Part shown: positions 831 to 30,379 of the stretch, piece after piece | Layout: the number at the start of each line of letters is the position of its first letter | Position numbering within the stretch: position 1 is the stretch's first letter | Assembly: GCA_041657425.1 (NCBI GenBank) | Contig: JBBABY010000006.1 | Location: forward strand, 36,152 to 67,956 | Reading direction: 5' to 3' | Source of the DNA: an archaeon | Lineage (GTDB): Archaea > Iainarchaeota > Iainarchaeia > Iainarchaeales > CSSED10-239 | DNA: 31,805 nt | Position numbers and translations under genes: made by a program | Notes under the pieces: generated by a model | Seen by the model: the letters and a program-made list of their open reading frames with translations, nothing else | Told to the model about the DNA's origin: nothing | Databases searched by the model: none

Positions 831-993
831 TGGGGACACTGGGATTTGAACCCAGGTCAACAGGTATCTCCTTTTTGTATCTAAGATAATTCTTAGCATA
901 CCTGTATCTTTTCAGTCATCTGTTTCTAAAAACATCCTGCACACTCCAAAAAACTGGAGCCCGTTAGGCTAGACCGGACTACCCTATGTCCCC
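831..993 (-). tRNA. tRNA-Trp (anticodon CCA) interrupted by an 88-nt intron at the canonical 37/38 position; CCA tail not encoded
   Basis: Hand-folded on the minus strand.
- Acceptor stem: GGGGACA/TGTCCCC, 7 bp.
- U8, A9.
- D-arm: GGGT-AGTCCGGTCTA-GCCT, with A14, G18G19 and A21.
- Anticodon stem: ACGGG/CCTGT.
- Anticodon loop: CU-CCA-G[intron]A.
- Variable loop: 4 nt, TGAC.
- T-arm: CTGGG-TTCAAAT-CCCAG.
- Discriminator: A73, as expected for archaeal tRNA-Trp.
Exons are 954-993 and 831-865. Confidence 0.9.
866..953 (-). other. tRNA-Trp intron (88 nt) with a canonical helix-bulge-helix-bulge-helix splice motif
   Basis: - Central 4-bp helix: C32U33C34C35 pairs with intron GGAG (intron nt 83-86).
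- Two 3-nt bulges flank it: A36-G37-U(i1) and A(i87)-U(i88)-A38.
- Outer helix: UUUUUG (i2-7) with CAAAAA (i77-82).
Cutting between the 2nd and 3rd nucleotide of each bulge gives exactly the 37/38 junction. The intron also has an internal hairpin CUAAGA-AUUA-UCUUAG. Confidence 0.8.
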
Positions 994-1091: not shown

Positions 1092-2087
1092 ATGATTTTA
1101 AACTATTCACACTGCTTTTCAGTTACTGACAGTAACCAGAAAGCAAATTTTGACCAAAGTAAGATTGGTGCTACAGAGGATTATAATTTAATTACTCATG
1201 GGCATAGCGATCATATATCTATAACTCCTCAAAAGATATTTACTACAAAAGAAACAAGTGCATTAATTAATTTAAGCACACAGAAAACTTTAGATTATGA
1301 GTTTGTTAATGGTCAAACTATTGACTTAACAGATAATATCCAGATGCAAGCATTAAATGCAGGACACATTTTAGGCAGTAAGATGTTTTACTTAGAAAGT
1401 AAAAACAAATCTCTTCTTTACACAGGAGATTTTAGAACACAGGATTCTCTTCTCTTAAGTGGAGCAAAGCCAATTGAAACAGACATACTTGTTCTAGAAA
1501 CCACTTTTGGAAAAAAAGAATTTGTTTTTCCAGAAAGAGAAAAAACATATCTTGACTTTGCAGAAAAGATTTCAAAGGATATAAATTCCGGTAAGCTTGT
1601 CCTCATAGGGGCATACTCGCTTGGTAAATCCCAAGAAATAATTAAGTTTGTTAATGAATATTTAGGAGAAACTCCAATCGTTACAAAGAAAGGATTTGAT
1701 TATTCAAAGGTTTATGAGGATTTTGATGTGTTTCTTGGAAACTATGATCTCCTTGATCATAACACAGACACACACAACATCTTAATTGTTCCAATGAATC
1801 TAATCAATGCGGATTTAATAAAAAGTTTAGAACACCAACAGAATAGAAAAGTCGCAAGTTACCTAGCAACAGGTTGGAATCATTATAAGTCAGGCAGATG
1901 TATTCCAATTTCAGATCATTGTGATTATCATGACCTTTTAGAATTTGTAAAAGCCACAAAAGCAAAAAAAGTATTTACAATGCATGGCTTTGCAGATGAG
2001 TTTTCAAAAACCATTTCAAAAGAATTAAGCATTTGGTCAAGACCAATAAAAGACCTTAACCAGATATCAATACATGATTTTTTATAA
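1092..2087 (+). CDS. metallo-beta-lactamase-fold, beta-CASP-type nuclease (short aCPSF-like / ligase-associated-exonuclease-like)
   Basis: - HxHxDH motif: ITHGHSDH.
- Later MBL motifs: NAGHILGS and YTGDFR.
- beta-CASP-like motifs: A (VLETTFG), B (SDHCDYHDL), C (TMHGF).
The 331-aa length fits the short beta-CASP nucleases. Confidence 0.7.
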   Translation: MILNYSHCFSVTDSNQKANFDQSKIGATEDYNLITHGHSDHISITPQKIFTTKETSALINLSTQKTLDYEFVNGQTIDLTDNIQMQALNAGHILGSKMFYLESKNKSLLYTGDFRTQDSLLLSGAKPIETDILVLETTFGKKEFVFPEREKTYLDFAEKISKDINSGKLVLIGAYSLGKSQEIIKFVNEYLGETPIVTKKGFDYSKVYEDFDVFLGNYDLLDHNTDTHNILIVPMNLINADLIKSLEHQQNRKVASYLATGWNHYKSGRCIPISDHCDYHDLLEFVKATKAKKVFTMHGFADEFSKTISKELSIWSRPIKDLNQISIHDFL

Positions 2088-2689: not shown

Positions 2690-4087
2690 TTATTTATTAA
2701 GAATTGTCTTATATTCAAATTCTGGACTGTGAATAACCGTTTTTAATTTTTCTCTAGTAATGTTTGGTTGATTTTTACATATTTCTTCTAAAATTCTAGA
2801 TCTATATTCTACAATACTTTTAAATTGGTTTTTAGAGATGTTTGCAATCTCGCAAAGTTTTTCTGCAAAATGCGAGGACATAATGTTAGTAGTAGTTGAT
2901 GATATTCCTGAATCTTGATAGATGTGATTTAGACTAATATTTCCCATTTTTGTAATTTCTGTAATTTGTGAAATTTTTCTAGTTAATTTTTCATTAATTA
3001 TTTTTTTATTTAATATTATTATTATATCTAATAATATAATATTTGATTCAGAAATTTCCATAGGTTTGTTTAAGAGTTTACTAACTGTGTCTTCGCTATT
3101 GTTTGAGTGTATTGTTGCAAAACAACCATTATGTCCAGTGTCCATTGCTACAAACAGTCCTTGAACTTCTTTTCCTCTAACTTCTCCTATAATAATCCTG
3201 TCTGGTCTCATTCTCATAGTATTAATGGTTATATCAAATAAACTATTTTCATTTGAAATATCAGATAACAAAGATACAGAATCATCAAAATCACTAATGT
3301 TTACTTCTGCAGTATCTTCAATTAAAACAATTCTTTCATTTTTATTAATAAAATCCAATAAGACATTAAGGAAAGTGGTTTTTCCAGAACCGGTCCCTCC
3401 ACAAACAAAAACGTTTGCTGGTCTAATTTTAAATCCATCAATAATTGTCCAAAGATATGCTGCAGTATATGAATCTAAAGTTCCAGCATTAATAAGATCA
3501 ATAATCGTAAGTGGTTTTTTTGTAAATTTTCTAATAGTTATTGCTTGAAAATTACATACGTTTTTAGAAACAATATTTAATCTAGAACCCTCTGGTAATG
3601 CTCCATCTATAAATTCTCTTTTATTGAAATTTTTATTAACTGTGTTCATTAAGAGGTCAATAAATTCATCATATTCTTTGTCTGTAAAAGACACTCCAGT
3701 TAATTCTTTATTTTGATTTCTATCAATTATAAATACTTTATCTAAATTATTAATTATTATTTCTTCAATATCTTTTGATTCAAATAATTTGGTTAATTGC
3801 TTGTAGCCTATTTGGTAATTAACAAGATATTCTGAAAATTCAGAAGTTAAGAACTCCCCATAATGTTTTTTTTCTTGTATTATTGATTCTGGAGAACCAA
3901 TCTTTTTTTGTCTATTCAGTTTTGCAATTTCTTTAATTATTTGTTCGTTATCTAGATTTGCTTTTTTAAGAATATAAGGTTCTATATCTTTTATATTAAG
4001 AGTTTTTTTTTCTAGTTTCTCTAAAATCAAATTAAATTCTTTATTTAGATATAAATATTTTTTGGTAGTTGCCATCATTAATCCCAT
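2690..4087 (-). CDS. type II/IV secretion-system-family ATPase (VirB11 / ArlI(FlaI) / PilB-like hexameric ATPase)
   Basis: - Walker A: VCGGTGSGKTTFLN.
- Walker B / Asp box: RIVLIEDTAEV.
- RPDRIIIGEVRG.
- His box: DTGHNGCFATIHSN.
465 aa. Confidence 0.85.
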   Translation of the reverse strand: MGLMMATTKKYLYLNKEFNLILEKLEKKTLNIKDIEPYILKKANLDNEQIIKEIAKLNRQKKIGSPESIIQEKKHYGEFLTSEFSEYLVNYQIGYKQLTKLFESKDIEEIIINNLDKVFIIDRNQNKELTGVSFTDKEYDEFIDLLMNTVNKNFNKREFIDGALPEGSRLNIVSKNVCNFQAITIRKFTKKPLTIIDLINAGTLDSYTAAYLWTIIDGFKIRPANVFVCGGTGSGKTTFLNVLLDFINKNERIVLIEDTAEVNISDFDDSVSLLSDISNENSLFDITINTMRMRPDRIIIGEVRGKEVQGLFVAMDTGHNGCFATIHSNNSEDTVSKLLNKPMEISESNIILLDIIIILNKKIINEKLTRKISQITEITKMGNISLNHIYQDSGISSTTTNIMSSHFAEKLCEIANISKNQFKSIVEYRSRILEEICKNQPNITREKLKTVIHSPEFEYKTILNK

Positions 4088-5653: not shown

Positions 5654-5658
5654 ATTTC

Positions 5659-5691
5659 GCACTGGACAGCCACCCCCCCGAAAATACCCCC
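5659..5691 (+). repeat. copy A of a 33-nt C-rich intergenic motif (GCACTGGACAG-N12-AAATACCCCC)
   Basis: GCACTGGACAGCCACCCCCCCGAAAATACCCCC. 27/33 identical to 12012-12044 in the same orientation. Lies 88 nt upstream of the antitoxin ATG. Confidence 0.8.
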
Positions 5692-5752
5692 ACTTATTTT
5701 AACCTATAGTATATTGTCTAGGCAGATCATAAATACAAATATAAATGTGTTG

Positions 5753-5768
5753 CCACATAAATATGTGG
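5753..5768. promoter_or_regulatory. inverted repeat CCACATA-AA-TATGTGG abutting the SD of the TA operon; candidate antitoxin operator (or SD-proximal hairpin)
   Basis: Perfect 7-bp arms with a 2-nt spacer, directly followed by / overlapping GGTGAT (5768-5773), with the ATG at 5779. An A/T-rich TATA-like stretch (AAATATAAAT, 5738-5747) lies just upstream. Confidence 0.45.
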
Positions 5769-5778
5769 GTGATGACAT

Positions 5779-6000
5779 ATGCCAAATATGACTTTAAGTA
5801 TTTCACAAGAAATGTATGATAGAATGAAAAATTATTCTGAAATAAAATGGAGCGAAGTTGCAAGAAAAGGATTTAAACAAAAATTAGATCAAATGGAAAT
5901 GCTTGAAAATTTAAAAGAAGTAAAACAAGCAAGAAAGGAATTTGAAGAAGGAAAAGGAATTAAATATTCTGATTTAAAAAAGGAGATGGGCAGAAAGTGA
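5779..6000 (+). CDS. type II antitoxin-like protein (RHH/CopG-like N-terminus plus charged C-terminal tail)
   Basis: - 73 aa; N-terminus TLSISQEMYDRMK...WSEVARKGF resembles ribbon-helix-helix antitoxins.
- Its TGA stop overlaps the GTG start of the RelE/ParE-like gene (GTGA at 5997-6000).
- GGTGAT SD lies 5 nt upstream. Confidence 0.65.
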   Translation: MPNMTLSISQEMYDRMKNYSEIKWSEVARKGFKQKLDQMEMLENLKEVKQARKEFEEGKGIKYSDLKKEMGRK

Positions 6001-6485
6001 TTTTCGAAATTTATATTACTGAAAAACATAAAAAGTTTCTAAAATCATTAGACAAAAAGATTGAAGATCAGATATTTAAAAAAATAGATCAATTAATAGA
6101 AAACCCAGATATAGGTAAACCACTAACAAATGAATTAAAGGGTTGTAGAAGTTTACATATTGGTAATTATAGAGTAATATATGAAATAAAAGAAGATCAA
6201 ATTTATATTTTGAGTGTTGGCCATAGAAAAAATATATACACCTATTTTAATCCAGATAAAAATGAAGAATTTACAACTGCTTTAAAATCACCAGATATGA
6301 AGTTATTTTATATAACTGCAGGAAAAGACACTAATAATAAGAAATTCATAAAGTTCATAAAAGATAAATTAGATGAATATGAAACAATAGAAGATATTGA
6401 ATATTGTAAGAAAGCAAGAAAACAAATAAAGAATGGAAAATTACTTACACACGAACAATTAATGAAAGATTTAAAATTGAAATAA
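5997..6485 (+). CDS. RelE/ParE-family toxin domain (about 85 aa) fused to a roughly 77-aa C-terminal extension homologous to the antitoxin tail
   Basis: The N-terminal part is typical of RelE/ParE and normally ends the protein: FLKSLDKKIEDQIFKKIDQLIENPDIGKPL...LKGCRSLHIGNYRVIYEIKEDQIYILSVGHRKNIY. Here 77 more residues follow. Residues 122-162 align without gaps to antitoxin residues 33-73 (15/41 identical). Confidence 0.75.
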   Translation: MIFEIYITEKHKKFLKSLDKKIEDQIFKKIDQLIENPDIGKPLTNELKGCRSLHIGNYRVIYEIKEDQIYILSVGHRKNIYTYFNPDKNEEFTTALKSPDMKLFYITAGKDTNNKKFIKFIKDKLDEYETIEDIEYCKKARKQIKNGKLLTHEQLMKDLKLK

Positions 6486-6487
6486 AC

Positions 6488-7567
6488 ATGTCTCAAGAAA
6501 TATATGATATAGTTGATCAGATGGTTAATGGTTACAATAGAAATCAAGTGTTTATTTCTAGATTAAAGACTTTTGATATAGCTAGTAAAGTTAATCCTTA
6601 CAATTCAGAAGAAAAACTAATTGAATCAATCGCTATAGATAGCAAGATTAATCTTAAAGTAGGGGGAGTGGATTCAGGCTTTGTTTCTAAGCAACTTAAT
6701 TTTGCAAATATTACAATCATCAAAGACTATGGTGTTTATTTTGAATACCAAGATGGAGAATTAAAAGACTACAAGTATTTTCCATTTCAATATAATCTTC
6801 CAAAACCTTATCTCTCTAGTTCCTCTCTTGAGCTTGAAGAAATAATGTGGAACACCTCAATTTTACGATTAGGAAAAGAATTAGATGCAACCTCACTAAT
6901 TCTTGGACAGACTGCTCCTCAACTTCTTTTGCTTGATGGTTCAATTATCCCACAATATATTAACAAGCCAACAAAGGATTGTCCAGAGAAAAAGAAATAT
7001 ACTTCTTTAATTTCAAAGTTTCAAAGTCTTTACAAAGAGGCAAGAGATAGAAAAATATTCTTGGCAGGTTGTATAGAAGACTGTAGAGCAAGTCGTTTCT
7101 TCACAGTCTTAAAAGATGAAGTCTTTCAAGATAAATCAATTGAGTTTGAATTATTTGATTCTTTCCTTGTCTTTTCAATCCTAGAGGAAAACCAAAGAAC
7201 AGGTATCTTCAAATATTCCAAGGATCCAAAGTCTCATCCAATCCTTGCAGATTTTCCTGAAGACATAAGAGATAATCTTTATTGTTGTTACTTGAAGCTT
7301 TCCAATCATGATTATCCACTAAGAATTGAGTTTATTTACTTTAAGGAGTTTGGATTGTCTCTCAAAAACTACACAGAAGAGCTAGTTAAGATGATATCAA
7401 GCATCTCTTCTTTCAACAAAACCTATACCTACCCTTCAGTTCTAGTTGAAGCAGACTTAAGAAGCAGATTAACAATCCAAGAGATAGATCTAATAACAAA
7501 CAAGATTCTAGAAAAGACAAGAAACTATGGCTTTAGAGTCCCAAGAAGAGAGTCTAGATTATTCTAG
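6488..7567 (+). CDS. nurA: NurA-domain (RNase H-like fold) nuclease, stand-alone
   Basis: - 359 aa, with the two acidic beta-strand motifs remembered from NurA: KVGGVDSGF (D62) and PQLLLLDGSIIPQY (D150).
- The size matches crenarchaeal/euryarchaeal NurA.
- The start ATG is 2 nt after the toxin stop, with no SD, implying translational coupling.
The assignment is from motif memory only. Confidence 0.6.
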   Translation: MSQEIYDIVDQMVNGYNRNQVFISRLKTFDIASKVNPYNSEEKLIESIAIDSKINLKVGGVDSGFVSKQLNFANITIIKDYGVYFEYQDGELKDYKYFPFQYNLPKPYLSSSSLELEEIMWNTSILRLGKELDATSLILGQTAPQLLLLDGSIIPQYINKPTKDCPEKKKYTSLISKFQSLYKEARDRKIFLAGCIEDCRASRFFTVLKDEVFQDKSIEFELFDSFLVFSILEENQRTGIFKYSKDPKSHPILADFPEDIRDNLYCCYLKLSNHDYPLRIEFIYFKEFGLSLKNYTEELVKMISSISSFNKTYTYPSVLVEADLRSRLTIQEIDLITNKILEKTRNYGFRVPRRESRLF

Positions 7568-29035: not shown

Positions 29036-30379
29036 ATGCAAACACTAAAAGAAACAGAGAAAATAGAATTAAAAAAATCAACCTCTGAATTAAAAGAAGC
29101 GATGATATCTATTTGTGCAATTCTAACTAAAAATAAATCTGGCCAACTATATTTTGGGATTAAAGATAATGGAGAAATAATCGGTCAAGAAATTGGCAAA
29201 GATACTTTAAGAGATATTGCTAGTGAAATCTCTAGAGCGATTGAACCAAAGATTCATCCAATAGTTAAAAAAGTTATATTGAATAAAAAGAATTGTATAG
29301 TTGTGGAGTTTTCAGGAAATTCCAATTTCTATTTTGCATACGGCAGAGCTTACATTCGTGTAAGTGATCAAAATCAGCAATTAGATATTGAAAATTTAAA
29401 AGAAAGGATTATTAGTCAGAGTAATGTTATTTGGGATAAACAATCTTCAAATAGAGTAGTTAAAGATGTAAACACAACTCAACTAAGAACATTTATAAAA
29501 AAAGCAAATCAAACAGAAAAAATAAATTTTAAATTTACAAATTCAAAAGAAGTATTAAATAAATTACATTTATTAAATAAACAAAAATTATCAAATGCAG
29601 GAATGGTATTATTTTCAAAGACCGCAAATATTGAATTACAATGTGCAGTTTTTAAGACAAAAGAAAAATCTGATTTTCTAGATATTGATTTAAAGAAAGG
29701 AAATATTTTTGAATTAATAGATTTTTCTAAAAAATATCTTTTTGAGCATTTAAACTGGAGAGCAGATTTAACAAAAACTAATAGAGTAGAAGAATTAGAA
29801 ATCCCTGAAAGAGCATTATTCGAAGCAATAATTAATTCTTTTTGTCACAAAGATTATACCATTAGTAAAAGTAACGAGATTGCCATCTACCCAGATAGAG
29901 TAGAGATTTATAATCCTGGCAAATTTCCTAAAGAATATTCCATAAATGATTATCTTTCTGGAAAAGGCAAATCCATTTTAAGAAATCCAGATATTGCTCA
30001 AGTTTTATATTATTTTGATTACATAGAGAATTGGGGTTCTGGGCTTAGAAGAATAAATGAATATTGTAAAGTACAGAAAATAAAAGTAGAATATAGATTA
30101 GAACCGAACGGATTATCCATAATATTTTATCGGCTAAATGTCTCTGTAAATGAAGGTGTAAATGAAGGTGTAAATGAAGGTGTAAAATTTACAAAAACAG
30201 AATTACAAATTATTAATACATTAATAAAAAATAAATTTATAACTTATGAAGAATTATCTAAAAAGTTAAAATTAAGTTCTGCGACAGTATTTAGAAATAT
30301 ATTTATATTAAAAAATCAAAACAAAATTAAAAGAATTGGTTCAGATAAAAATGGTTATTGGCAAGTATTAAAAAAATGA
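29036..30379 (+). CDS. AlbA_2 (Schlafen-core) / HATPase_c_4 / C-terminal wHTH protein ('RecG-like putative transcriptional regulator' architecture)
   Basis: - N-terminus ETEKIELKKSTSELKEAMISICAILTKNKSGQLYFGIKDNGEIIG is the AlbA_2 pattern.
- ERALFEAIINSFCHKDY...IYPDRVEIYNPGKFP...RNPDIAQVL...IENWGSGLRRI is the HATPase_c_4 pattern.
- The C-terminal TKTELQIINTLIKNKFITYEELSKKLKLSSATVFRNIFILKNQNKIKRIG is a wHTH. Confidence 0.8.
   Translation: MQTLKETEKIELKKSTSELKEAMISICAILTKNKSGQLYFGIKDNGEIIGQEIGKDTLRDIASEISRAIEPKIHPIVKKVILNKKNCIVVEFSGNSNFYFAYGRAYIRVSDQNQQLDIENLKERIISQSNVIWDKQSSNRVVKDVNTTQLRTFIKKANQTEKINFKFTNSKEVLNKLHLLNKQKLSNAGMVLFSKTANIELQCAVFKTKEKSDFLDIDLKKGNIFELIDFSKKYLFEHLNWRADLTKTNRVEELEIPERALFEAIINSFCHKDYTISKSNEIAIYPDRVEIYNPGKFPKEYSINDYLSGKGKSILRNPDIAQVLYYFDYIENWGSGLRRINEYCKVQKIKVEYRLEPNGLSIIFYRLNVSVNEGVNEGVNEGVKFTKTELQIINTLIKNKFITYEELSKKLKLSSATVFRNIFILKNQNKIKRIGSDKNGYWQVLKK
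30146..30186 (+). repeat. perfect 12-nt tandem repeat (GTAAATGAAGGT x3 plus a partial 4th) encoding VNEG-VNEG-VNEG in the linker before the wHTH
   Basis: Read directly: gtaaatgaaggt gtaaatgaaggt gtaaatgaaggt gtaaa. In frame within 29036..30379. Confidence 0.9.

What the first reader, a model, noticed from the sequence alone, without database searches (positions are those of the whole stretch)
5753..7567. Stand-alone NurA nuclease as the third, translationally coupled cistron of an RHH / RelE-ParE toxin-antitoxin operon
Seen directly:
- The antitoxin stop and the toxin start overlap (GTGA, 5997-6000).
- The NurA-like ATG (6488) is 2 nt after the toxin stop and has no SD of its own.
- A 7-2-7 inverted repeat (5753-5768) abuts the operon's SD, like an autoregulatory operator.

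Established knowledge: archaeal NurA normally works with the HerA ATPase and is usually encoded with herA, mre11 and rad50 for DNA end resection.

Here there is no HerA/Mre11/Rad50 anywhere in 31.8 kb. The only ATPase nearby is VirB11/PilB-like, not HerA. The nuclease is instead wired to a TA pair inside an accessory-looking block.

Inference: this is a TA-gated or TA-stabilised DNA nuclease effector (defence, abortive-infection-like or addiction function) rather than housekeeping NurA. I cannot tell from the sequence whether this architecture has been described.
Basis: partly seen in the sequence, partly recalled or inferred. Interest (0 to 1): 0.72.

Follow-up and report, generated by a model that had tools for sequence, protein, structure and literature searches.

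The report
RelBE toxin-antitoxin cassette upstream of nurA
A small RelE-type toxin-antitoxin cassette sits directly in front of the DNA-repair nuclease gene nurA in a group of tiny DPANN archaea; the layout is real and recurrent, but the nuclease looks like the lineage's ordinary NurA rather than a toxin-gated weapon.

Summary
The three genes are an RHH_12 antitoxin (5779-6000), a RelE-family toxin (5997-6485) and a true NurA (6488-7567). No HerA, Mre11 or Rad50 lies in the window or 6.5 kb beyond it.

The organism is an Iainarchaeota (Diapherotrites) archaeon of the Forterrea clade.

- **NurA is the ordinary gene.** It is the clade's single, syntenic nurA (HtpX-nurA-wHTH-membrane protein-beta-propeller).
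- **The sister clade is canonical.** There the orthologue sits just upstream of herA, with rad50 4-10 kb away.
- **The toxin is a fusion.** It is RelE (residues 1-84) plus a conserved 78-residue extension whose end is homologous to an RHH_12 antitoxin tail.
- **The layout recurs.** RHH-RelE-nurA occurs in several species and many metagenomes.
- **The parts are separable.** Relatives keep nurA after losing the cassette. One lineage has nurA-HtpX-RHH-RelE. Two near-identical Forterrea strains differ only by the RHH cassette.

Best reading: an autoregulated relBE cassette lodged upstream of housekeeping nurA, probably co-transcribing it.

Unexplained: toxin-antitoxin pairs of several families sit next to nurA across the phylum far more often than at other gene junctions. 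Whether this clade has HerA elsewhere could not be tested.

The parts
5656..5691 (+). Dispersed ~36-nt intergenic element (TTCGCACTGGACAGCCACCCCCCCGAAAATACCCCC) marking the 5' edge of the cassette region.
   Evidence: There is a second copy at 12009-12045. Copies also lie upstream of the cassette in L010, L013 and L014, and in L011 and L090. Window and variant contig L090 are identical up to its end, then diverge.
5745..5768 (.). Operator-like palindromic half-sites ATGTG / CACAT / ATGTG.
   Evidence: This is the only ATGTG-N2-14-CACAT site in the window (expected 0.29). Equivalent half-sites precede the RHH gene in L010, L013, L014 and L024. Repressor binding is inferred.
5779..6000 (+). RHH_12-family antitoxin, 73 aa: N-terminal ribbon-helix-helix plus a C-terminal toxin-binding-type tail.
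   Evidence: PF26688 is on record for this protein. It gives a weak VapB_Sulfo NCBIfam hit. Homologues pair with RelE, PemK and PIN toxins.
5997..6248 (+). RelE-type mRNA-interferase toxin domain (residues 1-84 of the 162-aa ORF). The GTG start overlaps the antitoxin stop, and AAGGAG lies at 5980-5985.
   Evidence: PF05016, E 1e-16. TIGR02385 RelE_StbE above its cut-off. The profile matches solved RelE toxins 2khe, 3g5o, 4fxe, 3bpq and 1wmi over residues 1-82 only. R59, H76, R77, K78 and Y81 are invariant.
6249..6485 (+). Conserved C-terminal extension of the toxin (residues 85-162). Its last ~40-55 residues are homologous to the C-terminal half of RHH_12 antitoxins.
   Evidence: BLASTP against the L021 remnant gives E 1e-7, and against L024 RHH E 3e-4. 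It also resembles the window's own antitoxin tail. Eight 90%-identity clusters carry the fusion. dN/dS is 0.18-0.31. AF2 predicts helices at pLDDT below 50.
6488..7567 (+). NurA nuclease, 359 aa. Invariant residues include D62 (GVDSG), E118, D150 (DGS), E197/D198, H250 and D323, plus the C-terminal RRxxRxF tail.
   Evidence: PF09376, 34.8 bits. AF2 model pLDDT 91, pTM 0.88. The best structural matches are Sso NurA 2ygk (E 5e-11), Tko HerA-NurA 9x1l/9x1n/9x1m, Pfu NurA 3tal/3taz/3tai, and TM1739 1zup, a putative RNase H-like nuclease.
7568..7595 (+). T-rich tract after the nurA stop codon, a possible archaeal terminator at the end of the unit.
   Evidence: Read directly from the sequence. The next gene starts 364 nt later. 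Terminator function is inferred.

Best explanation
This is a chromosomal relBE-type type II toxin-antitoxin cassette lodged in a variable spacer directly upstream of the lineage's ordinary nurA gene.

**Components (shown).** An RHH_12 antitoxin, a RelE-family mRNA interferase fused to an antitoxin-like tail, and a true NurA.

**Mechanism (inferred from established type II TA biology).**
- The RHH antitoxin dimer, alone or with toxin, binds the ATGTG/CACAT operator next to the TATA box and represses its own operon.
- The antitoxin tail neutralises RelE.
- When the antitoxin is depleted, RelE cleaves mRNA on the ribosome and the promoter is derepressed.

**nurA (inferred).** It starts 2 nt after the toxin stop and has only a degenerate TATA at -27. 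It is therefore probably read through from the cassette promoter and translated by reinitiation, which would make its expression stress-responsive.

**NurA function (inferred).** NurA itself is the conserved 5'-3' end-resection nuclease. It most likely still works with a HerA encoded elsewhere in the genome.

**Persistence (inferred).** The association persists by vertical inheritance and recombination of a presence/absence polymorphism, not because NurA needs the cassette.
For: **NurA is a genuine, ordinary NurA.**
- Fold and Pfam membership.
- One NurA locus per clade genome in the GTDB scan.
- Conserved synteny HtpX-nurA-151 aa-110 aa-beta-propeller.
- In the sister clade the orthologue lies 0-6 kb upstream of herA in 54 loci (52 of the 64 GTDB loci), with rad50 downstream in 43 of 66.
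- Invariant catalytic-type residues and the C-terminal RRxxRxF tail are shared by both clades.
- dN/dS of NurA is 0.10-0.13.

**The cassette is a relBE-type TA.** See; operator conservation.

**The cassette and nurA are separable.**
- L002/L003 (89% NurA identity) keep only a 30-38-codon tail remnant.
- L004/L011 keep a 44-aa RHH stub.
- L024 and L007 (96.7% nt identity in nurA) differ by a clean replacement of the spacer, with or without RHH.
- L094/L095 have the order nurA-HtpX-RHH-RelE110.

**Read-through is plausible.** The L002 -27 box is TTTAAAAA, whereas cassette-bearing loci have TTAATGAA or TTATTGAA.

**Precedents.**
- The yafNO TA lies inside the SOS-regulated dinB operon and is transcribed from the dinB promoter (PMC2814082).
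- NurA alone is a feeble ssDNA nuclease and needs HerA for dsDNA (PMC12977600).
Against: - HerA could not be shown to exist in any genome of this clade. It is absent within +-10 kb in all 20 or so loci.
- TA modules lie next to nurA far more often than expected across the phylum. A pure 'accidental neighbour' view does not explain this.
- The toxin extension abutting nurA is under purifying selection, so something about the junction is functional.
- Co-transcription and translational coupling are not demonstrated. nurA lacks a Shine-Dalgarno motif even without the cassette, so it may be a leaderless transcript from an internal promoter.
Confidence: 0.6

Rival explanations
1. Functional three-part module. 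In this clade NurA has been uncoupled from HerA and recruited as a TA-controlled DNA nuclease for stress, abortive-infection or addiction. The cassette gates its expression, and the antitoxin-like extension of RelE (or the RHH) contacts or regulates NurA.
For: - Loss of herA/rad50 linkage coincides with the gain of RHH/RelE linkage at the base of the clade.
- The arrangement, with the same 2-nt junction, is kept in all 23 contigs read for P0244 (seven distinct places shown), while the spacer upstream of RHH varies.
- The extension has dN/dS 0.18-0.31.
- In Forterrea, a full-length RHH overlaps the nurA start by ATGA with no toxin between.
- TA modules are enriched at nurA junctions phylum-wide.
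Against: - NurA is retained intact without any cassette in many clade members, and even in a near-identical strain.
- The cassette persists away from nurA in L094.
- There are no PADLOC hits and no relatives in viral contigs.
- The clade NurA keeps all residues shared with herA-linked NurA.
- Characterised NurA is nearly inactive without HerA (PMC12977600).
Confidence: 0.2
2. The RHH protein is primarily a dedicated transcriptional regulator of nurA. RelE is a secondary passenger that inserted into, or recombined with, an older RHH-nurA pair.
For: - RHH alone abuts nurA in L024, and RHH fragments do so in L021, L011 and L004.
- In L023 the order is RelE88-RHH91-nurA.
- The window's RelE extension looks like the remains of an RHH gene that once abutted nurA.
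Against: - The tails of the 'orphan' RHH proteins are of the same type as those of RelE-partnered antitoxins in L014 and L094. This suggests orphaned antitoxins.
- RHH is dispensable: L007 and about 9 other loci have none.
- The 44-aa stubs in L004/L011 lack the operator.
Confidence: 0.12
3. Pure coincidence. The cassette landed next to nurA once, and nothing about nurA matters. The junction is tight only because these genomes are compact.
For: - The HtpX-nurA spacer also takes up unrelated inserts: LigT, a Hint/intein-like ORF, a 413-aa Glug protein and a 494-aa ORF.
- The assembly branches at the dispersed repeat.
Against: - At least 7 independent TA types lie at nurA junctions, against 3-5 in 1,425 other junctions (Fisher p about 5e-5).
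- The cassette or its remnants occur across the whole clade, including its deepest branches.
Confidence: 0.08

Closest known systems
Archaeal HerA-NurA end-resection nuclease (S. solfataricus 2YGK; T. kodakarensis 9X1L; P. furiosus 3TAL)
   Same: Same fold, with solved NurA structures as the best structural matches. Pfam NurA scores above its threshold. Acidic residues are conserved at the GVDSG and DGS motifs. The sister-clade orthologue lies next to herA and near rad50.
   Different: In this clade nurA is not next to herA, mre11 or rad50 within +-10 kb. It follows HtpX and a TA cassette instead. Sequence is too diverged for PDB sequence searches to find NurA.
relBE type II toxin-antitoxin systems, including archaeal aRelE-aRelB (P. 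horikoshii 1WMI) and M. jannaschii RelBE (3BPQ)
   Same: An upstream small antitoxin overlaps a RelE-fold toxin. RelE-type residues are conserved near the C-terminus of the domain (HRKxxY). A palindromic operator lies at the promoter.
   Different: The antitoxin is an RHH_12-type protein. The toxin carries a conserved 78-aa extension ending in an antitoxin-like tail. A 359-aa nuclease gene follows 2 nt after the toxin.
E. coli dinB-yafN-yafO-yafP operon (TA module embedded in a DNA-damage operon)
   Same: A RelE-superfamily TA pair shares an operon with a DNA-repair enzyme and is transcribed with it (PMC2814082).
   Different: There the repair gene is upstream and the SOS promoter drives the TA. 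Here the TA is upstream and would drive the repair gene. No damage-responsive regulator was identified.
Three-gene TA operons (M. tuberculosis HigBA-SecB chaperone TAC; paaR-paaA-parE; E. coli mazEF-mazG and relBEF) - from my own knowledge
   Same: A third cistron is packed tightly behind a toxin-antitoxin pair.
   Different: In those systems the third protein regulates or assists the TA pair. Here the third gene is a conserved housekeeping-type nuclease that survives loss of the TA.
Fused, cis-neutralised toxins (CapRel-SJ46, EzeT) - from my own knowledge
   Same: A toxin domain is covalently joined to an antitoxin-like segment.
   Different: A separate full antitoxin is also present. Cis-inhibition is untested, and AF2 gave no confident docking.

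Membership tests
NurA nuclease family (PF09376) | Profile match above the curated threshold. | tested here: met
   34.8 bits against a gathering score of 21, covering 2-249 of 254 model positions. All 120 listed homologues but one carry PF09376.
NurA nuclease family (PF09376) | RNase H-like / PIWI-like NurA fold. | tested here: met
   AF2 model pLDDT 91. The top Foldseek hit is 2ygk_A Sso NurA (E 5.4e-11, TM 0.60/0.66), followed by Tko and Pfu NurA and the putative nuclease TM1739.
NurA nuclease family (PF09376) | Conserved catalytic acidic residues (first-strand Asp, equivalent to Tko D49). | tested here: inconclusive
   D62 (GVDSG, first core strand), E118, D150, E197/D198, H250 and D323 are invariant in 18 sequences. 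Residue-by-residue superposition on a solved active site was not available.
NurA nuclease family (PF09376) | Encoded with, and acting with, the HerA ATPase. | tested here: not met
   There is no HerA within +-10 kb in any locus of this clade. It is adjacent in the sister clade. Presence elsewhere in the genome could not be tested.
Type II TA, RelBE/ParDE superfamily | Toxin with RelE/ParE fold. | tested here: met
   PF05016, E 1e-16. TIGR02385, 43.6 bits against a cut-off of 27.9. The profile matches solved RelE toxins. The AF2 RelE domain is confident.
Type II TA, RelBE/ParDE superfamily | Small DNA-binding antitoxin immediately upstream, with overlapping genes. | tested here: met
   73-aa RHH_12 protein and the GTGA overlap.
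Type II TA, RelBE/ParDE superfamily | Autoregulatory palindromic operator. | tested here: inconclusive
   ATGTG/CACAT half-sites are conserved in five orthologous promoters. Binding was not tested.
Type II TA, RelBE/ParDE superfamily | Toxicity, and neutralisation by the antitoxin. | not testable with these tools
   Needs expression assays.
Tripartite TA systems (third component required) | The third gene co-occurs obligatorily with the TA pair. | tested here: not met
   nurA occurs without the cassette (L002, L006, L007, L016-L020, L022, L025). The cassette is separated from nurA in L094.
Known anti-phage defence systems (PADLOC-DB v2) | Match to a defence-system protein model. | tested here: not met
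   No hit for RHH, RelE162 or NurA at E <= 0.01.

The most novel reading that the evidence does not exclude
In Iainarchaeota, nurA is a preferred partner or docking site for type II toxin-antitoxin modules.

- Pairs with RelE, two MazF/PemK types and three PIN types lie immediately beside nurA in 13 of 87 loci.
- Only 3-5 lie at 1,425 other junctions.
- In the Forterrea clade nurA has left herA/rad50 and is wired behind an RHH/RelE cassette whose toxin carries an antitoxin-like tail.

This would mean TA modules control, or are controlled by, the DNA end-resection nuclease. NurA would act as a TA-gated DNA-degrading output in stress or virus defence.
Probability: 0.15. Interest if true: 0.7.

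Novelty: new variant of a known kind. Interest (0 to 1): 0.42.

Why it matters
If the ordinary reading holds, this is a tidy example of a selfish TA cassette capturing the transcription of a DNA-repair gene in a minimal-genome archaeon. It mirrors dinB-yafNO in E. coli.

The phylum-wide clustering of unrelated TA modules beside nurA is more interesting, as is a RelE fused to an antitoxin-like tail. If functional, they would link toxin-antitoxin switches to double-strand-break processing in archaea.

They would also raise the question of how NurA works when its gene is unlinked from, or perhaps lacks, HerA.

Tried and rejected
1. **HerA in this clade's genomes.**
   - The HerA homologue search was saturated by sister-clade sequences (3,580 hits, best 120 shown).
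   - The 50%-representative search gave 150 representatives. The 10 most AT-rich ones tested were Aenigmarchaeota, Promethearchaeia or unnamed short contigs.
   - The Forterrea paper and its supplements say nothing about repair genes.
   - The question stays open.
2. **PDB sequence-profile search for NurA.** It returned only spurious yeast PCNA hits. The fold search was needed instead.
3. **AF2 of RelE162.** The extension came out at low confidence, giving no information on cis-docking.
4. **Viral origin.** No NurA relative was found in IMG/VR.
5. **Integration at a tRNA.** There is none next to nurA.
6. **Extending the contig upstream.** This returned only a variant contig that branches at a dispersed repeat.
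7. **The 7-2-7 repeat as statistically special.** Rejected and replaced by the conservation argument.
8. **The extension as a separately translated protein.** Rejected, because the internal Met110 is not conserved.
9. **The T2SSE ATPase upstream as a HerA substitute.** Rejected. It is FlaI/VirB11-like and absent from that position in L006 and L007.
Full report
**Observation**

The sequence shows exactly what was described.
- ORF 5779-6000 (73 aa) ends in a TGA that overlaps the GTG start of ORF 5997-6485 (162 aa).
- That ORF ends in TAA at 6483-6485, 2 nt before the ATG of ORF 6488-7567 (359 aa).
- CCACATA-AA-TATGTGG (5753-5768) abuts GGTGAT and the first ATG.

Profile searches identify the three products.
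- The 162-aa protein is ParE_toxin/RelE (PF05016, E 1e-16, residues 7-81 only). It also passes NCBIfam RelE_StbE (43.6 bits against 27.9).
- The 359-aa protein is NurA (PF09376, 34.8 bits against 21).
- The 73-aa protein carries PF26688 RHH_12 in the precomputed annotation.

None of the other ORFs of the window has a HerA, Mre11 or Rad50 domain. The same holds for 6.5 kb past the 3' end. The only ATPase nearby is FlaI/VirB11-like. GC content is 25-34% throughout, so the locus is not compositionally foreign.

**NurA is a real NurA**

An AF2 model built on 18 homologues is confident (pLDDT 91, pTM 0.88). Its best structural matches are:
- S. solfataricus NurA 2YGK (E 5e-11, TM 0.60/0.66);
- the NurA chains of the T. 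kodakarensis HerA-NurA complexes;
- P. furiosus NurA;
- TM1739, a putative RNase H-like nuclease of T. maritima (all).

D62 (GVDSG), E118, D150 (DGS), E197/D198, H250, D323 and a C-terminal RRxxRxF tail are invariant. Sequence-only searches of the PDB miss NurA entirely.

**Who carries it, and where**

Homologues are all from Iainarchaeota (Diapherotrites) metagenome-assembled genomes. They fall into two groups.

*Sister clade (32-42% identity to the window NurA).*
- nurA lies on the same strand 0-6 kb upstream of herA in 54 loci, 52 of them among the 64 GTDB loci.
- rad50 lies 4-10 kb downstream in 43 of 66 loci.
- This is the canonical repair neighbourhood.

*The window's clade (52-100% identity).*
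- It includes the complete genome of Candidatus Forterrea multitransposorum (L024).
- No locus has herA or rad50 within +-10 kb.
- Instead the synteny is beta-CASP nuclease ... HtpX - [variable spacer] - nurA - 151-aa wHTH protein - 110-aa membrane protein - beta-propeller.
- Each genome of this clade appears once among the 80 best GTDB loci, which argues for a single-copy orthologue. The 40 weaker matches were not shown, so this is not proof.

**The toxin is a fusion**

Only residues 1-84 match RelE toxins. This holds for the Pfam match, the solved RelE structures (2khe, 3g5o, 4fxe, 3bpq, 1wmi) and the confident part of the AF2 model.

Residues 85-162 are a distinct extension.
- They are present in eight 90%-identity clusters at 70-99% identity.
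- The last 40-55 residues are homologous to the C-terminal half of RHH_12 antitoxins:
  - E 1e-7 against the 48-aa remnant that abuts nurA in L021;
  - E 3e-4 against the Forterrea RHH;
  - 37% identity to the window's own antitoxin tail.
- In L023, the deepest branch, the order is RelE88 - RHH91 - nurA.

The simplest history is therefore an RHH-RelE pair followed by a second RHH gene abutting nurA. The toxin's stop codon was then lost and the two reading frames fused.

The extension is not decaying. Its dN/dS is 0.18-0.31. Its dS is about half that of the RelE domain or NurA. This hints at an added nucleotide-level constraint, such as nurA expression signals, or at recent recombination.

**Recurrence and separability**

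The RHH73-RelE162-nurA arrangement, with the same 2-nt junction, occurs in:
- L010, L013 and L014 (NurA 73-79% identical);
- all 23 contigs read for P0244, while the spacer between HtpX and RHH varies.

The adjacency is therefore not a one-off.

The parts nevertheless separate freely.
- L002/L003 (89% NurA identity) retain only a 30-38-codon tail remnant.
- L004/L005/L011 retain a 44-aa RHH stub, 2 nt before nurA.
- About nine loci have nothing.
- L094/L095 have the order nurA-HtpX-RHH80-RelE110.
- Forterrea L024 and the near-identical L007 (96.7% nt identity in nurA) differ by a clean replacement of the HtpX-nurA spacer:
  - L024 has 317 nt carrying the operator and a full RHH that overlaps nurA by ATGA;
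  - L007 has an unrelated 115 nt.

On a rough neighbour-joining tree the cassette states are scattered over the whole clade. The association is therefore old but facultative, as expected of a TA cassette kept as a presence/absence polymorphism. NurA never depends on it.

**Regulation**

A 7-nt-arm palindrome is not unusual in this AT-rich DNA (33 found, about 37 expected). However, ATGTG-N4-CACAT at 5745-5758 is the only such site in the window (expected 0.29). ATGTG...CACAT half-sites also precede the RHH gene in L010, L013, L014 and L024. This supports an RHH operator next to a TATA-like box.

nurA has no Shine-Dalgarno motif. That is also true where the cassette is absent, so nurA may normally be leaderless.

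The -27 position differs between states. It reads TTTAAAAA in L002, where the cassette is lost. It reads TTAATGAA or TTATTGAA in cassette-bearing loci, where it is constrained by the toxin tail's coding sequence. This fits, but does not prove, dependence on read-through from the cassette promoter.

**An unexplained enrichment**

Across 87 loci (1.29 Mb, 1,588 gene junctions), TA modules lie directly beside nurA in 13 loci.
- RelE in the window's clade.
- RHH_12+PemK in L008.
- An RHH-like antitoxin plus MazF-like toxin in L038, L040, L064 and L075.
- PIN pairs in L009, L028 and L045.

An unbiased Pfam scan covered all small same-strand gene pairs more than 700 nt from nurA. It found only one HicAB, one PIN and one ParE module, plus two edge fragments.

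Fisher's exact test gives p = 5e-10 for loci. Counting about seven independent acquisitions gives p = 5e-5.

Two caveats apply. The background is only the 20 kb around nurA, not whole genomes. The number of independent events is an estimate.

The nurA-herA spacer of the sister clade also collects other small genes: a HAD-like hydrolase, a Zn-ribbon protein and NYN domains. It may simply be a permissive insertion site.

**Verdict**

*Best explanation (about 0.6).* This is an autoregulated relBE-type cassette with a fused toxin, sitting upstream of the lineage's ordinary nurA and probably co-transcribing it. The closest precedent is the dinB-yafNO operon of E. coli (PMC2814082). NurA most likely still works with a HerA encoded elsewhere. 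Two observations point that way:
- Characterised NurA is nearly inactive alone (PMC12977600).
- The clade keeps the C-terminal tail it shares with herA-linked NurA.

This last step is inference.

It is weakened by the free separability of nurA and the cassette, and by the absence of any match to known defence models or viral contigs.

*Decisive missing datum.* Whether the complete Forterrea genome encodes HerA.

Noticed in passing
window 5656-5691 and 12009-12045; L090 20-31(-) and 6031-6042; L011 3878-3889(-); L010 1074, L013 9155, L014 9205: A dispersed ~36-nt intergenic element (TTCGCACTGGACAG..CCCCCCGAAAATACCCCC) lies 45-100 nt upstream of start codons. Contig L090, from the same sample as L001, is identical to the window up to the element's end and then continues into different genes. 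The element therefore marks an assembly or recombination breakpoint.
   Followed up: partly
window 831-993 (-): A 163-nt tRNA match (Rfam RF00005, 43 bits), presumably intron-containing. ARAGORN did not report it.
   Followed up: no
window 12081-12917 (+): The Bro-N domain protein matches the PADLOC candidate defence family PDC-S13 over its full length (E 6.5e-124). Homologues occupy the same position in L004 and L005.
   Followed up: no
window 29036-30379 (+): A 447-aa protein combines AlbA_2/Schlafen, HATPase_c_4 and a C-terminal wHTH. It gives weak PADLOC hits to SIR2-PNTD 'Aga' and CasR/Csa3-type models.
   Followed up: no
window 8535-8942 (-) and 8948-9184 (-): A retropepsin-like aspartyl protease (135 aa) is paired with a 78-aa ORF. 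It gives a weak match to PADLOC candidate PDC-M08B. The pair is absent from the closest relative, L002.
   Followed up: no
window 1092-2087 (+): A beta-CASP metallo-beta-lactamase resembles the 'ligase-associated DNA damage response exonuclease' (TIGR04122, 139 bits, below its cut-off). It is conserved a few genes upstream of nurA throughout the clade.
   Followed up: no
L026-L089 (sister clade), between nurA and herA: The nurA-herA spacer is a variable zone. It holds a ~225-aa HAD-like hydrolase (29 loci), a ~76-aa CxxC...CxxC zinc-ribbon protein often overlapping herA (10 loci), NYN-domain proteins and TA pairs.
   Followed up: partly
L041, L047, L057, L074, L080 (herA); L004 6348-7772: Several sister-clade HerA genes carry inteins (850-1,700 aa products). 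L004 has a free-standing 474-aa Hint/intein-like ORF between HtpX and the RHH stub, and it clusters with those inteins.
   Followed up: no
L094 about 3300-3560: A GC-rich, structured-looking stretch sits in the 460-nt gap upstream of nurA in an otherwise AT-rich genome. It has no Rfam match at gathering threshold.
   Followed up: no
window 6249-6485: Synonymous divergence of the toxin extension (dS 0.6-0.9) is about half that of the RelE domain and of nurA (1.1-1.4). This suggests overlapping nucleotide-level constraint or recent gene conversion.
   Followed up: partly
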